From positions 1 to 24,518 of IMG/VR virus record IMGVR_UViG_2711768066_000004: 24,518 nt of DNA. The stretch is one strand, 5' to 3'. This document shows positions 7,798 through 23,410 of the stretch, one piece after another; the first letter of the stretch is position 1, and every line of letters begins with the position of its first letter. The position numbers and the translations under genes were made by a program. Source of the DNA: a virus. Lineage: Duplodnaviria; Heunggongvirae; Uroviricota; Caudoviricetes. Under the pieces are notes generated by a model, which saw only the letters and a program-made list of their open reading frames with translations, was not told the origin of the DNA and made no database searches.

Positions 7798-8204
7798 AAA
7801 TTCGTCAGGCGCAGACCAGCGCAACCTACATCCTGCCGGACCCCGGCGAAATGAATAAACGCGTCCTGATCCGCCAGCGGGTGGATATGCCCGCGGATAA
7901 CTTTGGCGTGGAGCCTCAATACCCGGTTGCGTTCCGGGCATGGGCGAAGGTTATCCAGACCAGTGCCACCACCTGGCAGGAAACCGCGCAGACCGGAGAC
8001 GCCATCACCCATTACATCACCATTCGCTACCGCCGGGGGATCACTGCTGATTATGAGGTGGTCTGTGGTGACAGTGTGTACCGCGTGAAACGTCAGCGTG
8101 ATCTGAACGGAGCGCGGCGCTTTCTGCTGCTGGAGTGTACGGAGCTGGGCGAATGTAGGCAGAGTCACGGAGGCAGCAATGGCGACTCCCTTTTTTCACG
8201 TTGA
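7794..8204 (+). CDS. Head closure / head-tail adaptor protein
   Basis: 136 aa; ATGA overlap with the upstream gene; conserved position and size. Confidence 0.6.
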   Translation: MKIRQAQTSATYILPDPGEMNKRVLIRQRVDMPADNFGVEPQYPVAFRAWAKVIQTSATTWQETAQTGDAITHYITIRYRRGITADYEVVCGDSVYRVKRQRDLNGARRFLLLECTELGECRQSHGGSNGDSLFSR

Positions 8205-8685
8205 TGTTCAGCAGCCCGCCGAGATGCGCTTTAACCGCGCCCGTGTCCGACGGGCGTTTGTCACGATTGGGCAGCGTCATATGCGTGATGCCCGTCGGCT
8301 GGTGATGCGCCGTGCGCGGTCGGCACCGGGTGAAAACCCCGGTTATCAGACCGGACGCCTGGCTCGTTCGATTGGTTATATGGTGCCGAGAGCCAGTAAA
8401 AAGCGAGCCGGTTTTATGACACGCATTGCCCCTAACCAGCGCAACGGGAAGGGGAACCGGATGATCTCTGGTGACTTCTATCCGGCGTTTCTGTTTTTTG
8501 GTGTCCGGGGAGGAGCAAAACGTCGTCGCAGTCATCATCGTGGTGCATCCGGTGGCAGCGGCTGGCGACTGGCTCCACGTAATAACTTCATGGTGGAAAC
8601 TCTTGAAAAGAACCGCAGCTGGACACGCTATTTTCTGGCGCGGGAATTGCGTAAATCACTGAAGCCGGAGCGACGACACAGATGA
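8179..8685 (+). CDS. HK97 gp10-like tail-component protein
   Basis: 168 aa basic protein; GGAGG SD; conserved position in the head-tail joining module. Confidence 0.55.
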   Translation: MATPFFHVDVQQPAEMRFNRARVRRAFVTIGQRHMRDARRLVMRRARSAPGENPGYQTGRLARSIGYMVPRASKKRAGFMTRIAPNQRNGKGNRMISGDFYPAFLFFGVRGGAKRRRSHHRGASGGSGWRLAPRNNFMVETLEKNRSWTRYFLARELRKSLKPERRHR

Positions 8686-9242
8686 AACTGACGCCTGTTA
8701 TTGCTGCGCTGCGTGCCCGCTGCCCGTATTTTGAAAACCGGGTGGCAGGCGCGGCACAGTTCAAAAATCTGCCGGAGGTCGGAAAGCTGAGACTCCCGGC
8801 GGCGTATGTGGTACCGGGTGATGACTCTCCGGGAGAAAACAAAAGCCAGACCGACTACTGGCAGGAGCTGAAAGAGGGCTTCTCCGTGGTTGTCATACTG
8901 AGTAACGGGCGTGATGAGCGCGGTCAGTTTGCTTCGTATGATGTGGTGGACGATGTCCGGCAGATGCTCTTTAAGGCCCTGCTGGGCTGGAACCCGGAGG
9001 CGTGCGGTAACCCGATTACCTATGACGGCGGCACGCTGCTGGATCTGAATCGTCATGAGCTGATTTATCAGTTCGATTTTTCGGTCATCAGCGAGCTGAC
9101 TGAAGACGATACCCGCCAGCAGGATGATCTGAACAGTCTGGATGAACTGCAAACGCTGGCGATTGATGTTGATTATCTCGAGCCCGGTAACGGGCCTGAC
9201 GGCGATATCGAACATCACACCGAAATAACCCTTCCTTCCTGA
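8682..9242 (+). CDS. Neck / tail-completion (sheath terminator-like) protein, Mu-type
   Basis: 186 aa; ATGA overlap with the upstream gene; position immediately before the small pre-sheath ORF and the sheath gene. Confidence 0.45.
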   Translation: MKLTPVIAALRARCPYFENRVAGAAQFKNLPEVGKLRLPAAYVVPGDDSPGENKSQTDYWQELKEGFSVVVILSNGRDERGQFASYDVVDDVRQMLFKALLGWNPEACGNPITYDGGTLLDLNRHELIYQFDFSVISELTEDDTRQQDDLNSLDELQTLAIDVDYLEPGNGPDGDIEHHTEITLPS

Positions 9243-9250
9243 GGATCCTC

Positions 9251-9418
9251 ATGTTTGTCAAACCTGTTAAAGGGCGGTCAGTTCCTGATCCTGCCCGCGG
9301 CGACCTTTTGCCCGCCGAAGGGCGAAATGTTGACGAGAACAACTACTGGCTGCGCCGTGAAGCAGCGGGTGATATCCGGCGCGTGAATAAAAAGGTGAAC
9401 ACCGATGACGATAAGCTT
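9251..9418 (+). CDS. Small conserved pre-sheath protein (55 aa; not in the supplied ORF track because it is under 60 aa)
   Basis: Read directly from sequence as ATG..TAA, MFVKPVKGRSVPDPARGDLLPAEGRNVDENNYWLRREAAGDIRRVNKKVNTDDDKL; overlaps the sheath start. A small ORF at this position is common in Mu-like tail clusters. Confidence 0.45.
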
Positions 9419-10901
9419 TAACACCATTCCGTCGAATACGCTGGTTCCGCTGTTTTATGCGGAAATGGATAACCAGGCGGCGAATACTGCACAGGACAGC
9501 GGAGCATCGCTGCTGATTGGTCATGCCAATAACGGTGCAGAGATTGTTGCCAACAGTCTGGTACTGATGCCGTCGGCAGACTATGCACGCCAGATTTGTG
9601 GTGCGGGAAGTCAGCTGGCGCGTATGGTCGAGGCTTATCGCCAGACCGACCCGTTTGGCGAGCTGTATGTGATTGCCGTTCCTGAATCCACAGGCGCGGC
9701 GGCAACGGTTACGCTGACGGTGACCGGGGAGGCAACCGAAACCGGCACGGTGAATGTCTATGTGGGACGTACCCGCGTGCAGGCTCCGGTGACCAACGGC
9801 GATAACGTCACGACGATTGCCAGCAGTATCAAAGATGCCATCAATGCCGTTCCGGCCCTGCCGTTTACGGCTTCATCTTCGGCAGGCGTGGTCACACTGA
9901 CCGCGCGTCATAAGGGGCTTTGCGGGAATGAAATTCCTGTCAGCCTCAATTACTACGGCTTTGGTGGGGGCGAAGTGCTGCCAGCGGGCGTACAGATTGC
10001 CGTGGCGACGGGTACCGCCGGTACGGGTGCTCCTGTTCTCACCGGCGCGGTGGCTGCAATGGCGGATGAGCCGTTTGATTATATCGGCCTGCCGTTCAAC
10101 GACACAGCCTCCGTTAACACGCTGGTGACCGAGATGAACGATACCAGCGGTCGCTGGAGCTATGCGCGTCAGCTGTATGGTCATGTGTATACGGCAAAGA
10201 TCGGCACGCTGTCAGAACTGGTGACCGCAGGTGACCAGTTTAACCAGCAGCACATTACCCTGGCGGGATACGAAAAAGAGACCCAGACGCCTGCCGACGA
10301 GCTGGCGGCAAGCCGTACCGCCCGCGCAGCGGTGTTTATCCGCAACGATCCGGCACGTCCCACGCAGACCGGTGAGCTGGTGGGTATGCTGCCTGCGCCG
10401 AAGGGGAAACGGTTCACGATGACCGAACAACAGACCCTGCTGTCTCATGGCGTGGCAACGGCGTATGTCGAAAGCGGGGTACTGCGCATTCAGCGTGATG
10501 TCACCACGTACAGGAAAAACGCTTACGGGGTTGCGGATAACAGCTACCTCGACAGTGAGACACTGCATACCAGCGCGTATGTACTGCGCAAACTGAAATC
10601 CGTCATTACCAGTAAGTACGGGCGTCACAAGCTTGCCAGTGACGGTACCCGCTTTGGTCCCGGTCAGGCGATTGTCACCCCGGCGGTGATCAAAGGGGAA
10701 CTGCTGGCAACCTACCGTCAGCTTGAGCGTGCGGGGATCGTGGAAAACTACGAACTGTTTAAGCAGTACCTGGTTGTGGAGCGTGATGCCAGCGATCCGA
10801 ACCGCCTGAACACGCTGTTCCCGCCTGACTATGTTAACCAGTTGCGTGTCTTTGCCGTGGTTAACCAGTTCCGTCTTCAGTATTCAGAGGAGTCTGCATA
10901 A
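9405..10901 (+). CDS. Contractile tail sheath protein (Mu gpL-like)
   Basis: 498 aa; AAGGTG SD; followed directly by a 118-aa tube gene with TAATG overlap; size and order fit the Mu L/M pair. Confidence 0.85.
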   Translation: MTISFNTIPSNTLVPLFYAEMDNQAANTAQDSGASLLIGHANNGAEIVANSLVLMPSADYARQICGAGSQLARMVEAYRQTDPFGELYVIAVPESTGAAATVTLTVTGEATETGTVNVYVGRTRVQAPVTNGDNVTTIASSIKDAINAVPALPFTASSSAGVVTLTARHKGLCGNEIPVSLNYYGFGGGEVLPAGVQIAVATGTAGTGAPVLTGAVAAMADEPFDYIGLPFNDTASVNTLVTEMNDTSGRWSYARQLYGHVYTAKIGTLSELVTAGDQFNQQHITLAGYEKETQTPADELAASRTARAAVFIRNDPARPTQTGELVGMLPAPKGKRFTMTEQQTLLSHGVATAYVESGVLRIQRDVTTYRKNAYGVADNSYLDSETLHTSAYVLRKLKSVITSKYGRHKLASDGTRFGPGQAIVTPAVIKGELLATYRQLERAGIVENYELFKQYLVVERDASDPNRLNTLFPPDYVNQLRVFAVVNQFRLQYSEESA

Positions 10902-11257
10902 TGGCCCGTATCGGGGGAACCTGTTATTTCAAAATTGACGGTCAGCAGCTATCGCTGACCGGTGGCATTGAGGTGCCCATGAACAGGACGGTCAATGATG
11001 ACATCATCGGCCTGGACGGTTCAGTGGACCGCAAGGAAACTCACCGTGCGCCTTATGTCAAAGGGACCTTCAAGGTGCCGAAGAATTTTCCGGTGGGCAA
11101 AATCACCTCGTCTGATGAGATGACAATCACTGCCGAGCTGGCGAACGGTCAGGTCTATGTACTGTCGTCTGCCTGGCTGCACGGCGAAGCGAACCATAAT
11201 GCCGAAGAAGGCACGGTTGATCTTGAGTTCCACGGTGAAGAAGGGGATTACCAGTAA
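10901..11257 (+). CDS. Tail tube protein (Mu gpM-like)
   Basis: 118 aa; translationally coupled to the sheath gene; conserved position. Confidence 0.75.
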   Translation: MARIGGTCYFKIDGQQLSLTGGIEVPMNRTVNDDIIGLDGSVDRKETHRAPYVKGTFKVPKNFPVGKITSSDEMTITAELANGQVYVLSSAWLHGEANHNAEEGTVDLEFHGEEGDYQ

Positions 11258-11526: not shown

Positions 11527-11675
11527 CGGCTGAATACCTCACTGATCGCTTCTTTGACTGCGCCAGCTACTGGCGCATTAATCCTTTCGAATTGCTGAAT
11601 ATGCCGATCAGTGAAATTCCCTTACTGGTCAGTCAGGCAAACAGGATAGAGCAGGAGAAACGCACACATGGCTGA
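11257..11675 (+). CDS. Tail assembly chaperone, -1 frameshift-extended product (GT-like)
   Basis: A -1 slip at 11508..11514 joins the 11257 frame to the frame of ORF 11493..11675 (...RFFPPGLTAEYLTDRFF...), ending at a TGA overlapping the tape-measure start. Confidence 0.6.
11508..11514 (+). promoter_or_regulatory. Programmed -1 ribosomal frameshift slippery site TTTTTTC
   Basis: Heptamer T_TTT_TTC in the zero frame (GGT TTT TTC), 10 nt before the chaperone stop codon; the -1 frame is open for 54 more codons. Confidence 0.6.
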
Positions 11676-13500
11676 ATTTGAGCTTAAGGCGTTGATCACC
11701 GGTGTCGACAGGCTTTCTCCCGCGCTGTCGAAAATGCAAAAGAAAATCCGGGGATTTAAACGCCAGGCGGAAGAAGCGTCACAGGGTGGGCTGGCGCTTG
11801 GTGGCGGACTGGCAGCGGGTCTGACGCTTTCCCTGAAATCTTATGCCGATCAGGAAAACGCCGCCACCGGGCTGAAAGTCGCCATGATGGATGCGAACGG
11901 CGAGGTTGGAAAGAGCTTTCAGGACATCAATAAACTGGCTATTGGCCTGGGTAACCAGCTACCCGGTACAACGGCTGATTTCCAGAACATGATGCAGATG
12001 CTGGTGCGTCAGGGGATCCCGGCAGAAAACATTCTTGGCGGTGTTGGTAAAGCGACAGCTTATCTTGCGGTACAACTGAAAAAAACACCGGAAGCGGCTG
12101 CCGAGTTTGCCGCAAAGATGCAGGATGCTACCGGAACGGCGTCAGAAGACATGATGGGGCTGTTCGACACTATCCAGAAGGCGTTTTATCTGGGCGTTGA
12201 CGATACCAACATGTTGTCCTTCTTCACTAAAACCAGCTCTGTTCTGAAGATGGTGAACAAGGACGGTCTTCAGGCTGCACAGAGCCTTGCCCCCATCAGC
12301 GTCATGATGGATCAGATGGGGATGAACGGGGAGTCGGCAGGTAACGCCCTGCGAAAAGTTATCCAGTCCGGATTAAGCGTTAAGAAAATCAGGGACGTCA
12401 ATAAAATCATGGCCCGCCAGAAACTCGGGGTACAGCTCGATTTTACTGACGGCAAAGGGAGTTTTGGCGGTCTTGATAACATGTTCAGGCAACTGGCAAA
12501 GCTGCGACAACTGACCGACGTTAAACGAACTGGTGTACTTAAGGCAATATTTGGTGATGATGCCGAAACCCTTCAGGTGGTCAATGCACTAATCGATAAA
12601 GGAAAGGATGGCTACGATCAGATCCAGCAGAAGATGAATAAACAGGCCAGCCTGAATAAACGTGTTCAGGCACAGCTTGGTACGCTGTCCAACCTGTGGG
12701 AAGCAATGACAGGGACCGCAACTAACGGCCTTGCGGCTATTGGCGGTGCATTTTCTGGTGACGCTAAAAATATCACGCAATGGCTGGGGGAGTTGGGGGA
12801 GAAATTCACGAAGTTTGCGGATGAAAATCCCCGGGTTATTCGCGGCGTCGTCGGGCTTGCTGCCGGTCTTGCGATTCTGAAACTGGGATTGATGGGCGTT
12901 GGCGGTGCCATCAGTATTGTCAGCAGGATCATGTCGATGACGCCGATTGGCATGATTGCGACGGCGATAGCCCTGGCTGCGGGATTAATTATCACTAACT
13001 GGGATGTTGTCGGACCTTATTTTAAGAAACTCTGGGAAACCATTGGTCCTTATTTTGAGGCTGGCTGGGAACTCCTTAAGAAAGTTTTTGCCTGGTCGCC
13101 GCTGGGGATGGTGATCAATAACTGGGGGCCGGTTGTTAAGTGGTTTCAGGATATGTGGGACAAGCTGAAGCCAATTATTGAGTGGTTTACCGACAGTTCC
13201 GGTGACACGGTCGATGCCATTAACTCTGCGCAGTGGGGCGCGGGTGCTTATGATGCTTATGGGACGGGAATACCGGCGCGGGGATACACACCTTATCCGG
13301 CGGTGGATCTGGCTCAGTCAAACAACGCCTCCGATGCCACAGCCCCGAATCCCTTCATGATTAACAAAGCTTCTGCGCCAAAAGTTGATGGTGAGATCAA
13401 GGTCTCTTTTGTGAATTCGCCTCCGGGTATGCGGGTTATGGAAACACGTTCTAGTGACATTGATATTAATCACGATGTTGGGTACACCAGATTTAGGTAA
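11668..13500 (+). CDS. Tail tape measure protein
   Basis: 610 aa, helix-rich with a hydrophobic/Gly-rich segment (GVVGLAAGLAILKLGLMGVGGAISIV) and a W-rich C-terminal region; AGGAGA SD; follows the frameshifted chaperone pair. Confidence 0.85.
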   Translation: MAEFELKALITGVDRLSPALSKMQKKIRGFKRQAEEASQGGLALGGGLAAGLTLSLKSYADQENAATGLKVAMMDANGEVGKSFQDINKLAIGLGNQLPGTTADFQNMMQMLVRQGIPAENILGGVGKATAYLAVQLKKTPEAAAEFAAKMQDATGTASEDMMGLFDTIQKAFYLGVDDTNMLSFFTKTSSVLKMVNKDGLQAAQSLAPISVMMDQMGMNGESAGNALRKVIQSGLSVKKIRDVNKIMARQKLGVQLDFTDGKGSFGGLDNMFRQLAKLRQLTDVKRTGVLKAIFGDDAETLQVVNALIDKGKDGYDQIQQKMNKQASLNKRVQAQLGTLSNLWEAMTGTATNGLAAIGGAFSGDAKNITQWLGELGEKFTKFADENPRVIRGVVGLAAGLAILKLGLMGVGGAISIVSRIMSMTPIGMIATAIALAAGLIITNWDVVGPYFKKLWETIGPYFEAGWELLKKVFAWSPLGMVINNWGPVVKWFQDMWDKLKPIIEWFTDSSGDTVDAINSAQWGAGAYDAYGTGIPARGYTPYPAVDLAQSNNASDATAPNPFMINKASAPKVDGEIKVSFVNSPPGMRVMETRSSDIDINHDVGYTRFR

Positions 13501-13507
13501 AGACGAA

Positions 13508-13529
13508 CAGGGAGGGCCGCCCCTCCCTG
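13508..13529. terminator. Bidirectional terminator hairpin (CAGGGAGGG-CCGC-CCCTCCCTG) between convergent tape-measure and moron genes
   Basis: Perfect 9-bp stem with 4-nt loop, 8 nt after the tape-measure stop and 4 nt after the minus-strand moron stop. Confidence 0.55.
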
Positions 13530-13532
13530 AAC

Positions 13533-13979
13533 TTACTGTGCGAACACGCAATTTCGGCCTGATGGGGAGCCGACAATTCTGGACATTTTTTCGCAAATAA
13601 CAGTTACCTGTTCTCCTTTTTTAAGAGCAGCAGCTGTTGATTTTTCAGAGTCTTGCATCTCCATTCTTGCTGGCATGAATTCATTTTCAGTTCTGAATTT
13701 AATAATTATAGAGTCAGTAAAGTCCTTATCAATGGATTGTACGATACCTCTAACGGCGATTAATTTACCTTTTAACTGTTCATCGGTAGCGACTTCATTT
13801 TCTTCATACTCTTTAAACAGCTGTCGAGCAGTAGTGTTGTAGATTTCTTTTTGCGGTGCCGCAGCTTCCGTATCGGATGAGTATGAAGAATTAGAGCCTT
13901 TATCGTTATTGCCTGCAAAATATCCAATAATCACCAACCCGATGAAAATATATAAAATCCATTTTAATAATTTCTTCAT
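13533..13979 (-). CDS. Moron: membrane-anchored protein with N-terminal TM/signal-anchor, Ser-rich linker and a C-terminal domain that looks OB-fold-like (tRNA_anti-like type, recalled by eye)
   Basis: 148 aa, MKKLLKWILYIFIGLVIIGYFAG...; very low GC; opposite strand to all flanking phage genes; AAGGTG SD 6 nt upstream of the ATG; own AT-rich upstream region and downstream hairpin. Confidence 0.75.
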   Translation of the reverse strand: MKKLLKWILYIFIGLVIIGYFAGNNDKGSNSSYSSDTEAAAPQKEIYNTTARQLFKEYEENEVATDEQLKGKLIAVRGIVQSIDKDFTDSIIIKFRTENEFMPARMEMQDSEKSTAAALKKGEQVTVICEKMSRIVGSPSGRNCVFAQ

Positions 13980-14089
13980 GTTATCACCTTAATGCTAATA
14001 ATTTATATAGTTACAAATGGTAATGGCTACCACTACAAATTATGGCATTACCAGTAAATATTACTACTGATAATAAATATGGGACTTAT
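13980..14089 (-). promoter_or_regulatory. AT-rich upstream region of the moron; putative sigma70 promoter
   Basis: About 110 bp of roughly 25% GC with TATAAA/TATATA-like -10 candidates on the minus strand; exact -35/-10 pairing not resolved by eye. Confidence 0.3.
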
Positions 14090-15418
14090 ATGACGTGGAA
14101 AGACAGACTTCAGGATGCGTCATTTCGCGGCGTGCCGTTTAAGGTTGAAGAAGAAAGTGCGGGAACCGGTCGTCGTGTGGAAACACATGAATACCCGAAC
14201 CGCGACAAACCCTATACCGAAGACCTGGGGAAAATCACTTTCCGCCCGTCCATCACGGCTTATGTGGTGGGAGATGACTGCTTTGACCAGCGTGATCGCC
14301 TGATTGAAGCGCTGAATAAACCCGGTCCCGGCACGCTTGTCCACCCGACATACGGTGAGGTGAAAGTCTGTGTTGACGGGGAAGTCCGGGTCAGCACATC
14401 GAAGAGTGAAGGGCGTATTGTCCGCTTTGACCTGAAGTTTGTCGAAGCGGGAGAACTCTCTTACCCCACATCAGGCGTGGCGACGGCGCAGACGCTGATG
14501 TCATCCTGTTCTGCACTGGATGACTGCATCAGTGACAGCTTCAGCGGTTTCAGTATCGATGGCGTGGCGGATTTTGTGCAGAACGACGTTATCGGTAATG
14601 CCAGCACAATGCTTGGGTATGTTTCTGATGCGATGAAAGTGGTGGATTCTGCTGTATCGGATGCCGCCAGGCTGTTGCAGGGGGATATCTCGGTACTTCT
14701 GCCGCCGCCATCGTCAGGAAAAAATTTCGTTGAGCAGGTGCAGAAAATGTGGCGTACCGGTAAACGCCTTTATGGTAACGCCAGCGACCTGGTCACCATG
14801 ATCAAAATGCTTTCCGGTGTCAGCCTCGGCAGCGATTTGCAACCGCGCGGCGTCTGGAAAACGGACAGTAAAACCACCGCCACAGCGACGCAGCAGCGTA
14901 ACGTGGTTGCCAGCACTCTTCGTACGACTGCAATCAGCGAAGCGGCGTATGCCGTCACACGATTGCCTGCGCCAACAACTCCCGCGGTGATGCAGAATGC
15001 CGCAGTGGGGCAGTCAACAACACCCGCGCAGAGCACCGGCTGGCCTTCCGTCACGCATCCGGCACTGAACAATGCACCTGCGGTGAAAAACACGGTTGAC
15101 CTGCCAACGTGGGAAGAACTGACCGACATTCGCGACACACTGAATACGGCAATTGATAAGGAGTTGTCCCGTACAACCAGTGATGCGCTGTTTCTGGCGC
15201 TGCGCCGGGTGAAAGCAGATCTGAATGCGGATATCAACACGCGCCTTGAACAGTCTGCGCGGATCATTCAGCGCACGCCGGATGAGGTTTTACCCGCGCT
15301 GGTGCTGGCGGCGACCTGGTTTGATAACGCGGCGCGTGACGTGGACCTTATCCGGCGTAATGCTATTACGCATCCCGGCTTTGTGCCGGTGATCCCTCTG
15401 AAGGTGCCAGTGCAATGA
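14090..15418 (+). CDS. DNA circularization protein (Mu gpN-like)
   Basis: Contains WKDRLQDASFRGVPFKVEEE near the N-terminus; position after the tape measure. Start placed at 14090 because the first 16 codons of the 14042 ORF have moron-like AT-rich composition. Confidence 0.7.
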   Translation: MTWKDRLQDASFRGVPFKVEEESAGTGRRVETHEYPNRDKPYTEDLGKITFRPSITAYVVGDDCFDQRDRLIEALNKPGPGTLVHPTYGEVKVCVDGEVRVSTSKSEGRIVRFDLKFVEAGELSYPTSGVATAQTLMSSCSALDDCISDSFSGFSIDGVADFVQNDVIGNASTMLGYVSDAMKVVDSAVSDAARLLQGDISVLLPPPSSGKNFVEQVQKMWRTGKRLYGNASDLVTMIKMLSGVSLGSDLQPRGVWKTDSKTTATATQQRNVVASTLRTTAISEAAYAVTRLPAPTTPAVMQNAAVGQSTTPAQSTGWPSVTHPALNNAPAVKNTVDLPTWEELTDIRDTLNTAIDKELSRTTSDALFLALRRVKADLNADINTRLEQSARIIQRTPDEVLPALVLAATWFDNAARDVDLIRRNAITHPGFVPVIPLKVPVQ

Positions 15419-19090: not shown

Positions 19091-20011
19091 ATGCATCGTA
19101 TAGACACGAAAACCGCGCAGAAGGATAAGTTCGGCGCGGGTAAGAACGGTTTTACCCGTGGTAACCCCCAGACCGGCACGCCTGCCACCGATCTGGATGA
19201 TGACTACTTTGACATGTTGCAGGAGGAGCTCTGCAGCGTGGTGGAGGCATCCGGTGCCAGCCTGGAGAAGGGGCGGCATGACCAGCTGCTTACCGCGCTT
19301 CGTGCGCTGCTGTTAAGTCGCAAAAATCCGTTTGGCGATATCAAATCGGACGGCACGGTGAAAACGGCTCTTCAAAACCTTGGTTTGGGAGATACAAGCG
19401 GATACGTGGGACGCCGGCTGAGTACCCGGGCTTTCGCGTCATCAGGTACGTATACCCCATCACCAGAAACAAAACGGATCAGGGTCACAATAACGGGCGG
19501 CGGTGGCGGTGGCTGCCAGGCTATATCCAGTAACGAAACGTTTTTCGGTGCTGGCGGTGGGGCCGGAGGGACAGTAATCACCATACTGACCCCGACACAG
19601 AATAGTTATCCTGTCACTATCGGCGCAGGTGGGGCCGGCGGCGTTGGTGCGACGAACGGCCTCAAGGGCGGTGATAGCTCGTTCGGATCGGTAATAGCCC
19701 CTGGTGGTGAAGGCGGCGGAAAAGTAGGAGTCACAAACACAAACGGCGGTAACGGAGGCGTACCGAATATTGGCGATATCCGCATCACTGGTGGAGATGG
19801 AGGCGACGGTCAGTCCGGGAATATCAGCGTCAGCGGTGAAGGCGGTGCATCGTACTGGGGAGGCGGTGGACGTGCAGGCGCTGGCGGTGGCGTTAGAGGC
19901 AGGGCATTTGGTTCAGGCGGAGGTGGTGCATACGATGCAGGTTATAGCGGAACCAGTATGACGGGCGGGAAAGGTGCTGATGGGGTTTGTATTATCGAGG
20001 AGTTTGCATAA
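19091..20011 (+). CDS. Tail fibre protein: constant N-terminal part (to about residue 97) fused to the currently expressed variable glycine-rich C-terminal part
   Basis: 306 aa; GGAG SD; the left crossover site lies in-frame inside the gene at the NLGLG motif; C-terminal two-thirds is Gly-rich ([21 protein letters not shown]). Confidence 0.8.
19371..19392. other. Left site-specific inversion crossover site (hix/gix-like), TTCAAAACCTTGGTTTGGGAGA
   Basis: Contains the palindrome AAACCTTGGTTT; an imperfect inverted copy is present at 21158..21180; resembles the Hin/Gin-family site consensus as recalled. Confidence 0.7.
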
Positions 20012-20421
20012 TGAATGCGTCATATGCAGTTATTGAAAATGGGATGGTTGTGAATGTCATTGTCTGGGATGGCGAGGATGAATTCACTGTGCCGGATAAT
20101 CTGCAGCTCATTAATATTTCTGATATCAGTGAGCAGCCCGGAATCGGCTGGGCGTATTCAGACGGGGTATTTACTGCGCCGCTCCCTCCGGAACGTTCTC
20201 ATGATGAACTGGTAGCTGACGCTGAACAGAAAAAACAGTCGTTGATAGACGCAGCAATGGTCAATATCAGCGTGATTCAGTTAAAGCTGCAGGCCGGGCG
20301 GAAGCTGACGCAGGCAGAAACCACCCGACTTAACGCCGTGCTGGATTACATTGACGCGGTGACGGCAACAGATACCAGCACTGCGCCGGATGTCATCTGG
20401 CCTGAACTGCCGGAGGCGTAG
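20011..20421 (+). CDS. Tail fibre assembly protein (currently expressed orientation)
   Basis: 136 aa; TAATG stop/start overlap with the fibre gene; GAGGAG SD; C-terminus (TSTAPDVIWPELPEA) resembles that of the convergent paralogue. Confidence 0.75.
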   Translation: MNASYAVIENGMVVNVIVWDGEDEFTVPDNLQLINISDISEQPGIGWAYSDGVFTAPLPPERSHDELVADAEQKKQSLIDAAMVNISVIQLKLQAGRKLTQAETTRLNAVLDYIDAVTATDTSTAPDVIWPELPEA

Positions 20422-20836
20422 GCCATTCAATATCTGGAGCACTGGAGGTATCAACCAGTTCCAGTGCGTCCAGATAATCCAGCCACAAATTATATTGCAC
20501 CAGTTCCTCACCTTTCAGACGACCAATTGATGCTTTACCTGGCCATTGTTTACTGTTGATGTATTCGTTGGCCTGATTAATCAATTGCTGCTTTTTAGTT
20601 TCGGCTGATGCAATTTGTTCTTCACGTGTTGGTGGAGGAATATCTACCCATGCAGGCAGTCCATCTTCTCCGACACATCTGTATTTTCCTTCTGGTGGTG
20701 TATCATAGAAATATTCCCTGAAAATTACTTCGTCTATATCAACACCTTTTTCTTCAGGCCACTCACCTTTTTCAACATAAAGAGACTTAAGTTCGTAAGG
20801 ATATGCCAGGTTGTTTACGTACAGATATTTCATCAT
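20393..20836 (-). CDS. Tail fibre assembly protein, alternative copy (expressed after inversion)
   Basis: 147 aa; convergent with and overlapping the other assembly gene by 29 bp; TAATG coupling to the silent fibre cassette. Confidence 0.7.
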   Translation of the reverse strand: MMKYLYVNNLAYPYELKSLYVEKGEWPEEKGVDIDEVIFREYFYDTPPEGKYRCVGEDGLPAWVDIPPPTREEQIASAETKKQQLINQANEYINSKQWPGKASIGRLKGEELVQYNLWLDYLDALELVDTSSAPDIEWPTPPAVQAR

Positions 20837-21210
20837 TACCAGCCCTTAGCGAAAAACGCACCACCTTCAAGACCATAATTGCAGTGAGCTATGAAGCCGG
20901 TAGTGCTCCAGTTGGTCGCCCCCCACATATTCCCACCCCCGAAACCACCATCGCACACAATTACAATGCCCGGTGTCTGTGTAAATGGAATCGGGAATGA
21001 AACATTGGCGGATACAGGCCCGTGTTCACTAGGAAAACTAATTCGTCCCCACTGTTCAATTGAACCATCTGGCATTTTTCGCCAGCCTGAACCTGATGCA
21101 TATGATGACATATCAGGTATCTGATTTTCCCCAGTTCCCACATTCCGTTTTGCCGCTTCTCCCAAACCAACGTTTATGAAGATGCAGAAATAACGAGCAA
21201 ATGGCATCAT
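20836..21210 (-). CDS. Silent alternative tail-fibre C-terminal cassette (promoterless in this orientation; only the part from about 21170 down to 20836 would be fused to the constant region after inversion)
   Basis: Minus-strand frame reads ...[20 protein letters not shown]... across the right crossover site, paralleling ...[13 protein letters not shown]... in the expressed gene; the Met at 21210 lies beyond the site and is probably not a native start. Confidence 0.6.
21158..21180. other. Right site-specific inversion crossover site (hix/gix-like), inverted copy
   Basis: TCTCCCAAACCAACGTTTATGAA is the reverse complement of the left site with about 2 mismatches; located about 57 bp upstream of the invertase start. 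Confidence 0.7.
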
Positions 21211-21460: not shown

Positions 21461-23410
21461 TTAATCGTGTTTTGGCCATACTTTCAATGCAATTTCCCCC
21501 AACTTTTTACCCCGCTCCAGGATTTCATCCTCATCCCATTTATCCTTAACTATAAGTGGAATGTTCAGTCGTAGATTGGTGTGGACGATGAGAGCATCAC
21601 GTTTTTTCAGAAATACAGCATTCTGAACAGAACGGTTTACGCTAAGGTTAAGCAAAGTTAGATTTCCCAACGTAGCTATCGCTTGTTGCCGTTTCCTTAC
21701 CAGTAGCTGTTCAGGGGTAAGATCGGTTCCAGACAGAACAATTTGGTTCAATACCGTAGCATCTGAATTTGTCACCATATGACCATTTTCGAGAGGCCAA
21801 CAGGAATACCAACTTTGAGGCATAAGATGATCGATATCGAGGTTAGAAAGATTTGGAACATCAGGCTTCTCTGTCTTCACTTGGCGACAAAGTTCTCTTT
21901 CAAGTTCCGTTAACATTGAGCGCATTTTCGGTGCGTCGAGCCTGCCAGGATAAAGTGGAGCATTGATGCAAGCGTTGAGAAATTCTGAGTCCCCAGGCCA
22001 ACGTGAGGCTTCGCCATTTAAGCTATTGAGGATATTACGTAACTCAACACTGGAAATTTCCGTTTTAGACAAGTGCCGCAATACATTCATAAATACATTG
22101 TTGTAATTCTTTGGCGTCAGGCCACATACGGCTCTTCGTACTACGTAGGAGACAAGATCATTATACATGGCTGCTTTCTCATCATCGGCGATGTTAGCTA
22201 TCGAAATGAACAAAGCAAGCGGATAAAGTGTCGTCACATCATAGGCTGCGATGCGATGTCCAAAGTGTGAGATGGGGGTTGTGCCAAAACCACCAACCAA
22301 TTCTTTATATTGTGATGCATATTGTTTGAGGCGCTTTACTTGCAGATCTGCTCGTTGTGAAGGCAAGTCCTTACTTACATAATCACGATACTCATTGTAA
22401 AGACGAGACAGATCGATTTCACGTTGCCTTTCTGATTGCAATGTCGCATGCACTAGCCACTCCATGCGTGGTTTATTAATACGACCACGACGTTGTCTTT
22501 CTGACCAGTACGTATCTTCAAAGATCTTCCACTCATTCTCATATAATTCAACAGCATTAATATTTTCATGTTCAGCGCACATAAAAATATAATTGCGAAT
22601 AAGATCTGTGGCATGAAGTTCCGCACCTCTGCCATTTAATGTTTCAAAAATTATTTGAGCGTCATCTTCAGCCTCGAGAAATATGCTTACTAGTTTCAGA
22701 TCCGTCAAGACAGCCTCAATTAATGCTACAGCATTTTCTCGTGGTGAGTGATTTTCTATTTTAATCCACTTTATAAAGGCTTCAGTAAAAAAACATAATG
22801 CTTCTAGTGATGGCGGGTGATTAAAATGCTTACGCAACGTACCATGCTGCGTGAAACTATCAGAGAATACATTCCGGATATCGTCAATATTTTCAACATT
22901 AAAACTTTGAATAAAATGAGTTTGATCCCGAAAAGTTGGCCACAGTTTGAAGCGCTCTACTTCTTTATTTCGCATTGTGTCTTCGTTTGAGTTTTTCAGG
23001 CAAGACGAAATGAGAGGCCCTAAGTTGGAAAGATCTGTCGCACGTAATGCTAATCGGATGGATGCCAGAACATATTGAAGAGTGGTCAATCGTTGCTGAC
23101 CATCAATAATATGTATGGAATCTACACCTAATAATCCTTTTTTTGGTTGAGGTTCCAGTACCACTGCACCAAGGAAATGGGGAGTTGGTTTTGTACCCGA
23201 GAGCCGGGATTGTGCTTTCTCTAGGATATCCTCCAGTAGAGCTGACCATTGGTTTCGCTGAGTCCATACATAGGCACGTTGATAGAATGGAACGCAGTAT
23301 TGTCGGCGGTCTTGAAAAAGTTGTTGGACAGTTAGCGTCTCGGATTTCATGGTATACCTGTAAGCGACATTGTACAAAAGTGAGGAGTTAATCTGATTTA
23401 GAACAATCAT
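21461..23410 (-). CDS. DUF262/DUF1524 fusion protein, GmrSD-family type IV (modification-dependent) restriction endonuclease-like
   Basis: N-terminal DUF262 hallmarks (VPFYQRAYVWTQRNQW and IIDGQQRLTTLQ); C-terminal DUF1524/His-Me-finger hallmarks (LDIDHLMPQSW, GNLTLLNLSVNRSVQN). Low GC. Likely true start is Met21 at 23350 (AGG 6 nt upstream and a TACAAT -10-like hexamer further up) rather than 23410. Confidence 0.8.
   Translation of the reverse strand: MIVLNQINSSLLYNVAYRYTMKSETLTVQQLFQDRRQYCVPFYQRAYVWTQRNQWSALLEDILEKAQSRLSGTKPTPHFLGAVVLEPQPKKGLLGVDSIHIIDGQQRLTTLQYVLASIRLALRATDLSNLGPLISSCLKNSNEDTMRNKEVERFKLWPTFRDQTHFIQSFNVENIDDIRNVFSDSFTQHGTLRKHFNHPPSLEALCFFTEAFIKWIKIENHSPRENAVALIEAVLTDLKLVSIFLEAEDDAQIIFETLNGRGAELHATDLIRNYIFMCAEHENINAVELYENEWKIFEDTYWSERQRRGRINKPRMEWLVHATLQSERQREIDLSRLYNEYRDYVSKDLPSQRADLQVKRLKQYASQYKELVGGFGTTPISHFGHRIAAYDVTTLYPLALFISIANIADDEKAAMYNDLVSYVVRRAVCGLTPKNYNNVFMNVLRHLSKTEISSVELRNILNSLNGEASRWPGDSEFLNACINAPLYPGRLDAPKMRSMLTELERELCRQVKTEKPDVPNLSNLDIDHLMPQSWYSCWPLENGHMVTNSDATVLNQIVLSGTDLTPEQLLVRKRQQAIATLGNLTLLNLSVNRSVQNAVFLKKRDALIVHTNLRLNIPLIVKDKWDEDEILERGKKLGEIALKVWPKHD

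What the first reader, a model, noticed from the sequence alone, without database searches (positions are those of the whole stretch)
13508..14089. Low-GC moron on the opposite strand inside the tail operon, encoding a membrane-anchored protein
Between the tape-measure and gpN-like genes, which normally abut in Mu-type tails, sits a 148-aa minus-strand gene with its own AT-rich upstream region, strong SD and a perfect 9-bp hairpin shared with the tape-measure gene end. The protein has an N-terminal TM/signal anchor, a Ser-rich linker and a compact C-terminal domain that looks OB-fold-like. This is the classic arrangement of a lysogenic-conversion or superinfection-exclusion moron expressed from the prophage independently of late transcription.
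Basis: partly seen in the sequence, partly recalled or inferred. Interest (0 to 1): 0.55.

Follow-up and report, generated by a model that had tools for sequence, protein, structure and literature searches.

The report
Prophage Sie2009-like exclusion gene moron
A small, AT-rich gene inserted backwards between two tail genes of an E. coli prophage encodes a membrane-anchored protein related to Sie2009, a dairy-phage protein known to stop other phages from injecting their DNA, so it is most likely an ordinary accessory "keep rivals out" gene that has not been tested in E. coli.

Summary
A 148-aa minus-strand ORF (13533-13979, 37% GC against 52-58% in the flanks) lies between the tape-measure and DNA-circularisation/baseplate-hub genes of an SfII/SfV-like prophage with a Mu-type tail. 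A perfect 9-bp hairpin (13508-13529) follows it.

The cassette (13504-14085) is accessory. Of 864 E. coli genomes with both flanks, about 70 carry it. Most have an empty 60-nt junction, and others carry different low-GC cargo there.

The protein has an N-terminal signal-anchor, a Ser-rich linker and an OB-fold domain (PF12869, E 3e-19; AF2 pLDDT 89; best PDB match 3F1Z). Two invariant cysteines, a lipobox variant and zinc-ribbon-TM variants indicate that the domain is periplasmic.

The key result is homology to lactococcal phage Tuc2009 Sie2009, an experimentally characterised blocker of DNA injection. Both fall in phrog_8545, and hhalign gives 97.6%, E 5e-12.

In at least 8 other phage lineages, homologues sit directly downstream of the cI repressor gene. 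Alleles at the tail junction are under strong purifying selection and share a conserved extended -10-like motif and the hairpin.

Verdict: a new, untested Gram-negative member of a known superinfection-exclusion family. Expression and phenotype are inferred, not shown.

The parts
13504..14085 (.). Low-GC cassette (582 bp). It replaces the 53-bp spacer, with its plus-strand terminator hairpin, found at the empty TMP/DNA-circularisation junction.
   Evidence: blastn against the empty junction L100: homology ends at 13503 and resumes at 14086. GC of 13446-14085 is 37%. SfII and 'empty' E. coli junction sequences are.
13533..13979 (-). CDS for a 148-aa Sie2009-like, PF12869 (tRNA_anti-like) OB-fold membrane protein.
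   Evidence: ORF. PF12869 E 2.9e-19. phrog_8545 E 1.5e-49. hhalign to Sie2009 97.6%. pN 0.15 against pS 0.67-0.89 between alleles.
13911..13961 (-). N-terminal signal-anchor (residues 7-23, WILYIFIGLVIIGYFAG), preceded by MKKLLK.
   Evidence: AF2 helix 2-22. Kyte-Doolittle mean 2.18, with 3 K in the 6-residue N-flank and 1 K in the 15-residue C-flank. No Cys, so no lipobox.
13848..13910 (-). Ser/Asn-rich flexible linker (residues 24-44).
   Evidence: pLDDT 53-56 over residues 21-40. Length and sequence vary between homologues.
13536..13847 (-). OB-fold domain (residues 45-148) with invariant C129 and C144 and the motif Y58-x2-NEVA-x-D66.
   Evidence: pLDDT 95-98. Foldseek match to 3F1Z, E 6e-5. 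Invariant columns.
13508..13529 (.). Perfect 9-bp G+C-rich hairpin between the two convergent stop codons. Probable terminator or 3' stabiliser for the minus-strand gene.
   Evidence: The GGGAGGG/CCCTCCC stem core is conserved in alleles with 71-73% protein identity, while the loops differ.
13983..13990 (-). Shine-Dalgarno sequence AAGGTGAT.
   Evidence: Sequence. AGGTGAT is conserved in the window, L006 and L037 alleles; L013 has TGAGGATG instead.
14039..14047 (-). Candidate extended -10 promoter TGcCATAAT (inferred).
   Evidence: The block TGC-n-ATAA-n-TT is the only conserved non-coding block among four junction alleles whose synonymous sites are saturated. It was not picked up by the -35/-10 consensus scan.
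11668..13500 (+). Tail tape-measure gene (context). Its last ~55 nt are low-GC and diverged, so they are part of the exchanged module.
   Evidence: PHROG tape-measure hits. Identity to SfV/SfII ends near 13445. GC of 13446-13500 is 36%.
14090..15418 (+). Mu gp43/N-like DNA-circularisation (baseplate hub) gene (context). The real start is probably ATG 14090, not 14042.
   Evidence: PF07157 DNA_circ_N. phrog_184. The conserved MTWKDRL start with a GGAG-type SD is seen in SfII and L100.

Best explanation
The region is a reverse-oriented moron in the tail operon of an SfII/SfV-like E. coli prophage.

**The protein.** It encodes a type-II (N-in, C-out) inner-membrane protein. A short cytoplasmic MKKLLK tail and one transmembrane helix anchor it. 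A roughly 20-residue Ser-rich tether follows. A disulfide-stabilised OB-fold domain projects into the periplasm. The protein belongs to the same family as Sie2009 of Lactococcus phage Tuc2009.

**Proposed mechanism (by homology).**
- The gene is transcribed in the lysogen from its own promoter, against the direction of the silent late operon, and ends at the hairpin.
- The periplasmic OB domain then blocks DNA entry by superinfecting phages after they adsorb.
- It would do this either by binding the incoming tail-tip/tape-measure conduit or by masking an inner-membrane component that the conduit needs.

**Shown here:** gene, composition, accessory status, fold, family membership, purifying selection, and the conserved hairpin and upstream motif.

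**Inferred:** topology, expression in the lysogen, and the exclusion phenotype and its target.
For: **Family**
- PF12869 at 69.5 bits and phrog_8545 'superinfection exclusion Sie-like', E 1.5e-49.
- Sie2009 itself scores E 1.7e-79 on phrog_8545 and 43.3 bits on PF12869.
- Sie2009 aligns to the family profile at 97.6% probability, E 4.7e-12, over anchor, linker and OB domain.
- Sie2009 and the identical SieLC3 are membrane-associated and block DNA injection (PMC7693887; 10.1101/2023.08.15.553423).

**Fold**
- AF2 pLDDT 89, and the best PDB match is the PF12869 lipoprotein 3F1Z.

**Periplasmic topology**
- C129 and C144 are invariant.
- The positive charge is on the N-terminal side of the anchor, and one homologue has a lipobox (LISGC) in place of the anchor.
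- Some homologues have a zinc-ribbon-TM-OB architecture.
- The related TcdC OB-fold is experimentally extracellular (10.1101/872283).

**Accessory status**
- About 70 of 864 junctions carry the cassette. Other junctions are empty or hold a bPH protein or a secreted 164-aa protein.

**Lysogen-type contexts**
- Homologues lie immediately downstream of, and co-directional with, a CI-type repressor in at least 8 of 28 other phage context clusters.
- One sits at a prophage end in Serratia.
- One lies opposite-strand next to the TMP gene of an unrelated myovirus.

**Selection and regulation**
- pN is about 0.15 against pS 0.67-0.89.
- The hairpin core and a TGnNATAAnT motif are conserved across diverged alleles.
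- Alleles co-diverge with their flanking tail genes: 73% against 70%/67%.
Against: - No expression data exist. The -35/-10 scan found no consensus promoter, and the extended -10 is only a phylogenetic footprint.
- Similarity to Sie2009 is remote (about 27% identity in the profile alignment) and crosses the Gram-positive/Gram-negative divide, so the function may have drifted.
- Some homologues are chromosomal with no phage genes nearby: Pectobacterium between rplS and a methyltransferase gene, and a Pantoea island. The family is very large, with 7,688 representatives. Exclusion may be one use of a more general envelope-binding module.
- There is no PADLOC model hit.
- The hairpin's U-tract is weak, because it overlaps the TMP coding end.
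- Topology rests on indirect arguments. No signal-peptide predictor was available.
Confidence: 0.6

Rival explanations
1. It is a lysogenic-conversion envelope factor unrelated to phage exclusion. The periplasmic OB domain would bind a glycan, porin or toxin and protect the host, for example against antimicrobial peptides, bacteriocins or contact-dependent/T6SS effectors. This would resemble the periplasmic OB-fold protein YdeI or a membrane-anchored immunity protein.
For: - Chromosomal, non-prophage homologues exist in Pectobacterium and Pantoea. The Pantoea copy lies in an island with a WapI-like immunity gene.
- The family is huge and taxonomically broad.
- The domain pI varies from 5.6 to 8.9, so there is no conserved DNA-binding charge.
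- The TcdC preprint discusses OB-folds that bind extracellular ligands and cites YdeI (10.1101/872283).
Against: - The only experimentally characterised member of the same PHROG/Pfam family is an exclusion protein.
- Phage-borne copies repeatedly sit in repressor operons.
- The same prophage carries another anti-phage gene, GmrSD.
- No toxin or effector gene is linked to it in the window.
Confidence: 0.22
2. It is an abortive-infection protein of the AbiP/PdpSau type. It would be membrane-anchored with a cytoplasmic, nucleic-acid-binding OB-fold that senses infection and kills the cell or halts replication.
For: AbiP and PdpSau combine an N-terminal membrane helix with an OB-fold and are prophage- or plasmid-borne defences (PMC10127798). 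PF12869 is nominally a nucleic-acid-binding OB family.
Against: - The charge distribution points to N-in/C-out.
- Two cysteines are invariant.
- Lipoprotein-signal and zinc-ribbon-TM variants place the domain outside the cytoplasm.
- The domain is not basic in this allele: pI 5.6.
- PdpSau's C-terminal domain is described as positively charged and cytoplasmic.
Confidence: 0.06
3. It is a structural, assembly or lysis component of this phage's own tail, for example a tape-measure partner or spanin-like protein. Alternatively it is a decaying or spurious ORF with no function.
For: The gene sits next to the tape-measure gene here and in an unrelated myovirus. Some lineages carry 5'-truncated copies.
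Against: - It is absent from the large majority of closely related, presumably functional prophages and from SfII, SfV, SfI and SfIV.
- It lies on the opposite strand to the late operon.
- Homologues occur in repressor operons and bacterial chromosomes.
- Strong purifying selection and invariant residues argue against a spurious ORF.
Confidence: 0.04

Closest known systems
Sie2009 (orf2) of Lactococcus phage Tuc2009, and identical SieLC3
   Same: - Same Pfam family (PF12869) and same PHROG (8545).
- Same three-part build: short basic N-terminus, single hydrophobic anchor, Ser/Thr-rich linker and OB domain, with the shared motif Y-x2-N-x2-A-x-D-x2-(Y/L)KGK...G.V.S.
- Prophage-borne accessory gene.
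- Known to be membrane-associated and to block DNA injection (PMC7693887).
   Different: - Only about 27% identity in the profile alignment.
- Gram-positive host, where the domain faces the cell wall rather than a periplasm.
- Sie2009 lacks the C129/C144 cysteine pair.
- It sits between the repressor and integrase genes, whereas the window gene is reversed inside the tail operon. Other Gram-negative homologues do follow cI.
- No phenotype is known for the E. coli protein.
PDB 3F1Z, putative nucleic-acid-binding lipoprotein of Klebsiella pneumoniae (PF12869 structure)
   Same: Best structural match: Foldseek E 6e-5, TM-score about 0.6 on the target. Exported OB-fold of the same Pfam family in an enterobacterium.
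   Different: Lipoprotein anchor rather than a transmembrane helix. 17-20% identity. Function unknown, and not known to be phage-borne.
HK97 gp15 moron (superinfection exclusion)
   Same: A moron placed next to the tape-measure gene of an E. coli phage. It encodes a small predicted inner-membrane protein reported to block DNA entry (10.1101/2023.08.15.553423). HK97 also has an annotated 'reverse moron' (gp23) in its tail region.
   Different: No sequence relationship: hhalign probability 0.3%. It is 62 aa with no extracytoplasmic domain, and is on the same strand as the tail genes.
P22 SieA
   Same: Opposite-strand gene with its own promoter, lying directly after a DNA-delivery gene (gene 16) in the late region. 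[quoted passage not shown]
   Different: Unrelated sequence: BLASTP E 41. It is a multi-pass membrane protein with no OB-fold.
C. difficile TcdC and its phage homologues (Lactobacillus phage A2 ORF22)
   Same: - Membrane anchor, low-complexity or coiled linker and OB-fold.
- The TcdC profile matched PF12869 by HHpred (PMC3575817).
- The OB-fold is experimentally extracellular (10.1101/872283).
- The A2 homologue lies directly downstream of cI.
   Different: The relationship to this family was only weak in my test: hhalign 43% over 35 columns, and no PF12869 hit for A2 ORF22. TcdC is discussed as a regulator of toxin expression.
AbiP / PdpSau
   Same: N-terminal membrane helix plus OB-fold, and an anti-phage role from mobile elements (PMC10127798).
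   Different: Cytoplasmic, positively charged DNA-binding domain. Abortive infection after DNA entry. Sequence similarity was not tested here (sequences not retrieved), and the predicted topology is opposite.

Membership tests
Pfam PF12869 (tRNA_anti-like OB-fold) | HMM score above the curated gathering threshold | tested here: met
   69.5 bits against a cut-off of 23.5, E 2.9e-19, covering profile positions 5-131 of 146.
Pfam PF12869 (tRNA_anti-like OB-fold) | Five-stranded OB barrel resembling the family's solved structure | tested here: met
   AF2 pLDDT 95-98 over residues 45-148. Top Foldseek PDB hit is 3F1Z, E 6e-5, followed by AspRS/LysRS anticodon-binding OB domains.
Pfam PF12869 (tRNA_anti-like OB-fold) | Nucleic-acid binding, as implied by the family name | not testable with these tools
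   Domain pI is 5.6 in this allele and 5.6-8.9 across alleles, which does not suggest a conserved basic surface. The inferred periplasmic location argues against tRNA-type ligands.
Sie2009-type superinfection exclusion proteins (phrog_8545) | Sequence homology to Sie2009 | tested here: met
   The window protein scores E 1.5e-49 on phrog_8545 and Sie2009 scores E 1.7e-79. hhalign of the family profile against Sie2009 gives 97.6%, E 4.7e-12, over 131 columns. BLASTP gives E 1e-6.
Sie2009-type superinfection exclusion proteins (phrog_8545) | Small protein with a hydrophobic N-terminus, membrane-associated | tested here: inconclusive
   The predicted anchor spans residues 7-23. Membrane association is predicted, not measured.
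Sie2009-type superinfection exclusion proteins (phrog_8545) | Encoded in the lysogeny module next to the repressor | tested here: not met
   The window gene lies in the tail operon. However, homologues in at least 8 other phage context clusters lie 14-176 nt downstream of a CI-type repressor gene on the same strand.
Sie2009-type superinfection exclusion proteins (phrog_8545) | Expressed from the prophage; blocks DNA injection without affecting adsorption | not testable with these tools
   Needs RNA-seq of a lysogen plus phage challenge, adsorption and injection assays.
Moron (sensu Juhala/Hendrix, HK97) | Extra gene between two genes that are adjacent in close relatives | tested here: met
   SfII and most E. 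coli relatives have a 60-nt junction. The cassette is present in about 70 of 864 genomes.
Moron (sensu Juhala/Hendrix, HK97) | Nucleotide composition different from the surrounding genes | tested here: met
   37% GC against 52-58%.
Moron (sensu Juhala/Hendrix, HK97) | Own promoter and terminator | tested here: inconclusive
   The terminator-like hairpin is present and conserved. The promoter is only a conserved extended -10-like motif, TGcCATAAT, and the scan found no -35/-10 consensus.
P22 SieA family | Sequence homology; multi-pass inner-membrane protein | tested here: not met
   BLASTP E 41. SieA has several hydrophobic segments, whereas this protein has one.
HK97 gp15 family | Sequence homology | tested here: not met
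   hhalign probability 0.3%.
TcdC-like membrane OB-fold proteins | Profile-level homology to TcdC or phage A2 ORF22 | tested here: inconclusive
   hhalign 43%, E 2.5e-4, over 35 columns. A2 ORF22 gives no PF12869 hit. A published HHpred link between TcdC and PF12869 exists (PMC3575817).
Bacterial lipoproteins | Lipobox with Cys at +1 after the signal peptide | tested here: not met
   There is no Cys before residue 129. One homologue, P0067, does have LISGC.

The most novel reading that the evidence does not exclude
Sie2009-type proteins may form one trans-phylum family of extracytoplasmic OB-fold 'gatekeepers' that recognise the tape-measure/tail-tip conduit of incoming long-tailed phages. On this reading, the repeated placement of the gene beside tape-measure genes would reflect genetic linkage between an exclusion protein and the conduit it recognises or spares. 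That placement is seen here, in Buttiauxella and metagenomic relatives with 70% diverged tails, and in an unrelated myovirus. An E. coli member would then give a tractable system for the mechanism of Sie2009/Ltp/gp15-type injection blocks, which the papers read here (a 2020 study and a 2023 preprint) still describe as unknown or only hypothesised.
Probability: 0.15. Interest if true: 0.6.

Novelty: new member of a known kind. Interest (0 to 1): 0.38.

Why it matters
If the E. coli protein excludes phages, three things follow.

- **Reach of the family.** A mechanism known only from dairy lactococcal phages would extend to enterobacterial prophages. These are present in roughly 1-2% of complete E. 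coli genomes, with relatives in Pantoea, Serratia, Erwinia and Buttiauxella.
- **A structural handle.** The Sie2009 family would gain a disulfide-bonded periplasmic OB-fold on a flexible tether.
- **A tractable host.** Escape mutants could be isolated and the target found in a genetically easy organism.

The work also documents the tape-measure/baseplate-hub junction of SfII-like prophages as a cargo hotspot with at least three alternative low-GC genes. This is useful for annotating prophages and for predicting phage-therapy host range.

If the protein does not exclude phages, this is one more uncharacterised 'OB-fold protein' moron.

Tried and rejected
**No informative hit**
- NCBIfam gave only an insignificant match, and PADLOC gave none.
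- The PDB sequence search gave only chance matches to coronavirus spike constructs.
- A literature search for PF12869 / tRNA_anti-like together with exclusion found nothing direct. The Klebsiella paper only names a neighbouring gene.

**Candidate relatives rejected**
- P22 SieA: no homology.
- HK97 gp15: no homology.

**Weak or inconclusive**
- Phage A2 ORF22 (TcdC homologue): only weak profile similarity, so left inconclusive.
- The consensus sigma-70 scan found nothing upstream of the ORF. It found one strong-looking site inside the ORF (13732-13705), which I treat as chance in AT-rich DNA.

**Technical limits**
- dN/dS could not be computed properly because synonymous sites are saturated, so pN and pS are reported instead.
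- My first attempt to read the loci files picked up only 12 records and was redone.

**Hypotheses rejected:** lipoprotein, spanin and structural-component readings (see rivals).
Full report
**1. What is in the sequence**

The window is the late region of an SfII/SfV-like E. coli/Shigella prophage with a lambda-like head and a Mu-type contractile tail. It contains terminase, capsid, sheath, tube, tape-measure, Mu gp43-48-like baseplate and tail-fibre genes.

- Between the tape-measure gene (11668-13500, +) and the DNA-circularisation/baseplate-hub gene lies a 148-aa ORF on the minus strand, 13533-13979.
- The hub gene's conserved start is ATG 14090, not the longer ORF start at 14042.
- The ORF's GC is 37% (GC3 34%), against 52-58% for its neighbours. 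The 110-nt spacer upstream of it is 27% GC.
- A Shine-Dalgarno sequence, AAGGTGAT, ends 3 nt before the ATG.
- A perfect 9-bp, G+C-rich hairpin with a 4-nt loop occupies 13508-13529, between the two convergent stop codons. It folds at -19 to -20 kcal/mol, z about -2.6 to -3.0 against shuffles. Only the minus strand has a T-rich tail.

**2. It is an accessory cassette at a cargo hotspot**

- Alignment with an 'empty' junction (Shigella phage SfII and E. coli MLI104K1) shows homology ending at 13503 and resuming at 14086.
- The 582-bp cassette replaces a 53-bp spacer. In the empty form that spacer carries a plus-strand terminator-like hairpin, CCCAC-TCCG-GTGGG followed by T6.
- The last ~55 nt of the tape-measure gene are also low-GC and diverged. 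This suggests the cassette moves between phages by recombination within flanking tail genes.
- A flank-only query found both flanks in 864 of 5,426 complete E. coli genomes. The full cassette is in about 70.
- In the 48 rows with both flanks (of 60 rows taken at even steps down the ranking), 28 junctions were empty and 5 carried this gene. One carried a 5'-truncated copy lacking the membrane anchor. Twelve carried a 164-aa secreted protein with no Pfam match, one carried a bPH_1 protein and one carried a different unnamed gene.
- The 164-aa and bPH cargo genes whose composition was checked are also low-GC, at 31% and 38%.

This is textbook moron behaviour. HK97 itself has annotated forward and 'reverse' morons in its tail region.

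**3. The protein**

- Pfam assigns it to PF12869 (tRNA_anti-like OB-fold) at 69.5 bits, against a cut-off of 23.5.
- An AlphaFold2 model built on 38 homologues has mean pLDDT 89. It shows a helix at 2-22, a low-confidence Ser-rich linker at 23-44 and an OB barrel with helices at 46-146.
- The best solved-structure match is 3F1Z, a Klebsiella 'putative nucleic acid-binding lipoprotein' of the same family. Anticodon-binding OB domains of AspRS and LysRS follow.
- BFVD returns other phage 'tRNA_anti-like' proteins.

The protein has no lipobox. Several lines of evidence place the OB domain outside the cytoplasm:
- The N-flank MKKLLK carries three lysines, while the 15 residues after the anchor are net acidic.
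- C129 and C144 are invariant in all 38 aligned homologues, as expected for a periplasmic disulfide.
- One homologue replaces the anchor with a lipoprotein signal, LISGC.
- Several homologues have a cytoplasmic zinc ribbon before the TM helix.
- 3F1Z is a lipoprotein.
- The distantly related TcdC OB-fold has been shown experimentally to be extracellular (10.1101/872283).

The domain's pI ranges from 5.6 to 8.9 among alleles, so a conserved nucleic-acid-binding surface is unlikely.

**4. Link to a characterised function**

- The PHROG hit is phrog_8545, 'superinfection exclusion Sie-like', E 1.5e-49.
- I traced the label to orf2 of Lactococcus phage Tuc2009, which is Sie2009 and carries exactly that annotation.
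- Sie2009 matches phrog_8545 end to end (E 1.7e-79) and passes the PF12869 threshold (43.3 bits).
- It aligns to the profile of the window protein's family at 97.6% probability, E 4.7e-12, over 131 columns spanning anchor, Ser/Thr linker and OB domain. BLASTP alone gives E 1e-6 over the motif region.
- Sie2009 and the identical SieLC3 are small membrane-associated proteins. They protect lactococci against several phage groups by preventing DNA injection. The mechanism is hypothesised to be either contact with distal tail components or masking of an injection trigger (PMC7693887). The P22 SieA preprint lists Sie2009, Ltp and HK97 gp15 as injection blockers of unknown mechanism (10.1101/2023.08.15.553423).
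- I found no paper in the library that links Sie2009 to PF12869/OB-folds or to enterobacterial prophages.

**5. Genomic contexts of homologues**

*Same tail junction.*
- IMG/VR holds at least 106 viral contigs that encode relatives.
- Twenty-five of the 80 retrieved loci are the same tail junction, always on the opposite strand. Alleles fall at 99-100%, 94-95% (truncated), 73% and 71% protein identity.
- The 73% alleles sit between tail genes that are themselves only 70% and 67% identical. A Buttiauxella prophage has the same arrangement.
- The gene has therefore been kept at this site through long divergence.

*Other phage contexts.* The other 55 loci fall into 28 context clusters.
- In at least eight clusters the gene lies 14-176 nt downstream of, and co-directional with, a CI-type repressor (Phage_CI_repr + Phage_CI_C, or HTH_3 + Peptidase_S24). 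This is the classic position of lysogen-expressed exclusion genes.
- In one myovirus the gene is reversed between a tail-chaperone-like ORF and the tape-measure gene.
- In another phage it lies between head-closure and antirepressor genes.
- In a P2-like group it is convergent with the gpD-like tail gene.
- In Serratia it is the last gene of a prophage.

*Non-phage copies and family size.*
- Copies without nearby phage genes exist in Pectobacterium and Pantoea.
- The family has 7,688 representatives at 50% clustering.
- Motif-based hits occur across Enterobacterales, Betaproteobacteria, Xanthomonadales and beyond.

**6. Selection and regulatory footprints**

- Between junction alleles, non-synonymous divergence is about 0.15 while synonymous sites are saturated (pS 0.67-0.89). 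This indicates strong purifying selection.
- In upstream spacers that are otherwise unalignable, one block is conserved in all four diverged alleles: TGC-n-ATAA-n-TT. In the window it reads TGcCATAAT, at 14047-14039 on the minus strand. It fits an extended -10 promoter.
- Every allele also keeps a hairpin with the stem core GGGAGGG/CCCTCCC just after its stop codon. Loops and stem ends vary.
- These footprints support an autonomous transcription unit but do not prove one. The simple -35/-10 scan found nothing upstream.

**7. Interpretation**

- The best explanation (confidence about 0.6) is a reverse moron encoding a Sie2009-family, inner-membrane-tethered periplasmic OB-fold protein. It would be made in the lysogen and would block DNA entry by superinfecting phages.
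- The moron status and family membership are close to certain. The phenotype is inferred from a remote homologue and from genomic context.
- The main rival (about 0.2) is a different envelope-protective role, suggested by the chromosomal homologues and the size of the family.
- An AbiP/PdpSau-like abortive mechanism (PMC10127798) conflicts with the inferred topology.
- A structural role conflicts with the gene's absence from most relatives.
- P22 SieA and HK97 gp15 are architectural analogues only.
- TcdC-like phage proteins are at best distant relatives (PMC3575817).

**8. Verdict**

It is a new, uncharacterised Gram-negative member of a known kind, so interest is moderate (0.38). Its value lies in offering an E. 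coli system for a mechanism of injection blocking that the papers read here still describe as unknown, and in documenting a cargo hotspot in a common prophage family.

Noticed in passing
window 21461-23410 (-): A 649-aa ORF with GmrSD_N and GmrSD_C domains (type IV, modification-dependent restriction endonuclease) lies just beyond the tail-fibre genes. It is a second probable anti-phage cargo gene in the same prophage.
   Followed up: partly
window 19375-19392 and 21158-21175; genes 19091-21210: 18-nt inverted repeats (AAACCTTGGTTTGGGAGA, 94% complementary) bracket a tail-fibre C-terminal region. Inside are two Caudo_TAP chaperone genes and a second fibre C-terminal fragment in opposite orientations. 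This resembles a Mu G-segment-like invertible host-range cassette. No invertase ORF of 100 aa or more was seen in the window.
   Followed up: partly
window 14042-14092: The longest ORF for the DNA-circularisation gene starts at 14042. The start conserved with SfII and E. coli relatives (MTWKDRL, with a GGGA/GGAG SD) is ATG 14090. SfII's own annotation also starts too early, inside the terminator hairpin.
   Followed up: yes
L011:856-1350 (+), E. coli IZSBS22 and about a quarter of sampled junctions: The same TMP/DNA-circularisation junction often carries a different low-GC (31%) gene on the plus strand. It encodes a 164-aa protein with a cleavable-looking signal peptide (MRIFVFFISALLSFNLAAEE) and no Pfam match. 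Function unknown.
   Followed up: partly
L010:812-1189 (+), E. coli STS63-1-E: A third cargo at the same junction is a 125-aa bacterial PH-domain protein (bPH_1, E 3e-48), on the plus strand, 38% GC.
   Followed up: partly
L012:788-1174 (-); L032-L036: Some prophages carry a 94-95% identical allele of the OB gene that has lost its 5' end, including the membrane anchor and upstream region. These are apparently decaying copies.
   Followed up: partly
L001:3117-3155; L100:580-605: The empty junction carries a plus-strand intrinsic-terminator-like hairpin with a T6 run between the tape-measure and baseplate genes, inside what should be one late operon. It may attenuate baseplate gene expression. 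The moron cassette removes it.
   Followed up: no
window 13705-13732 (-): A near-consensus sigma-70 motif (TTGATA-16-TATAAT, 11 of 12) lies inside the OB ORF on its own strand. It is probably a chance match in AT-rich DNA, but it could drive a truncated transcript.
   Followed up: no
L002-L005 (Pantoea anthophila and metagenomes), 8001-11200: In Pantoea the homologue sits after copCD-yebY in an island with unannotated 267-aa and 191-224-aa genes and a WapI-like immunity gene. In related viral contigs (L044 group) the same gene pair follows a P2-like gpA and a CI repressor, suggesting a prophage remnant.
   Followed up: partly
BFVD A0A8S5U313: A 352-aa phage protein named 'Host cell surface-exposed lipoprotein', a name I recall being used for Ltp-type exclusion proteins, matches the OB model structurally (E 5e-7). 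This hints at fusions of the two exclusion-associated modules. The sequence was not retrievable here.
   Followed up: no
L063-L077 group, e.g. L067:5148-5945 (+): In a P2-like phage group the OB gene is preceded on the same strand by a conserved 253-266-aa ORF with no Pfam or PHROG match. This may be a two-gene accessory module.
   Followed up: no
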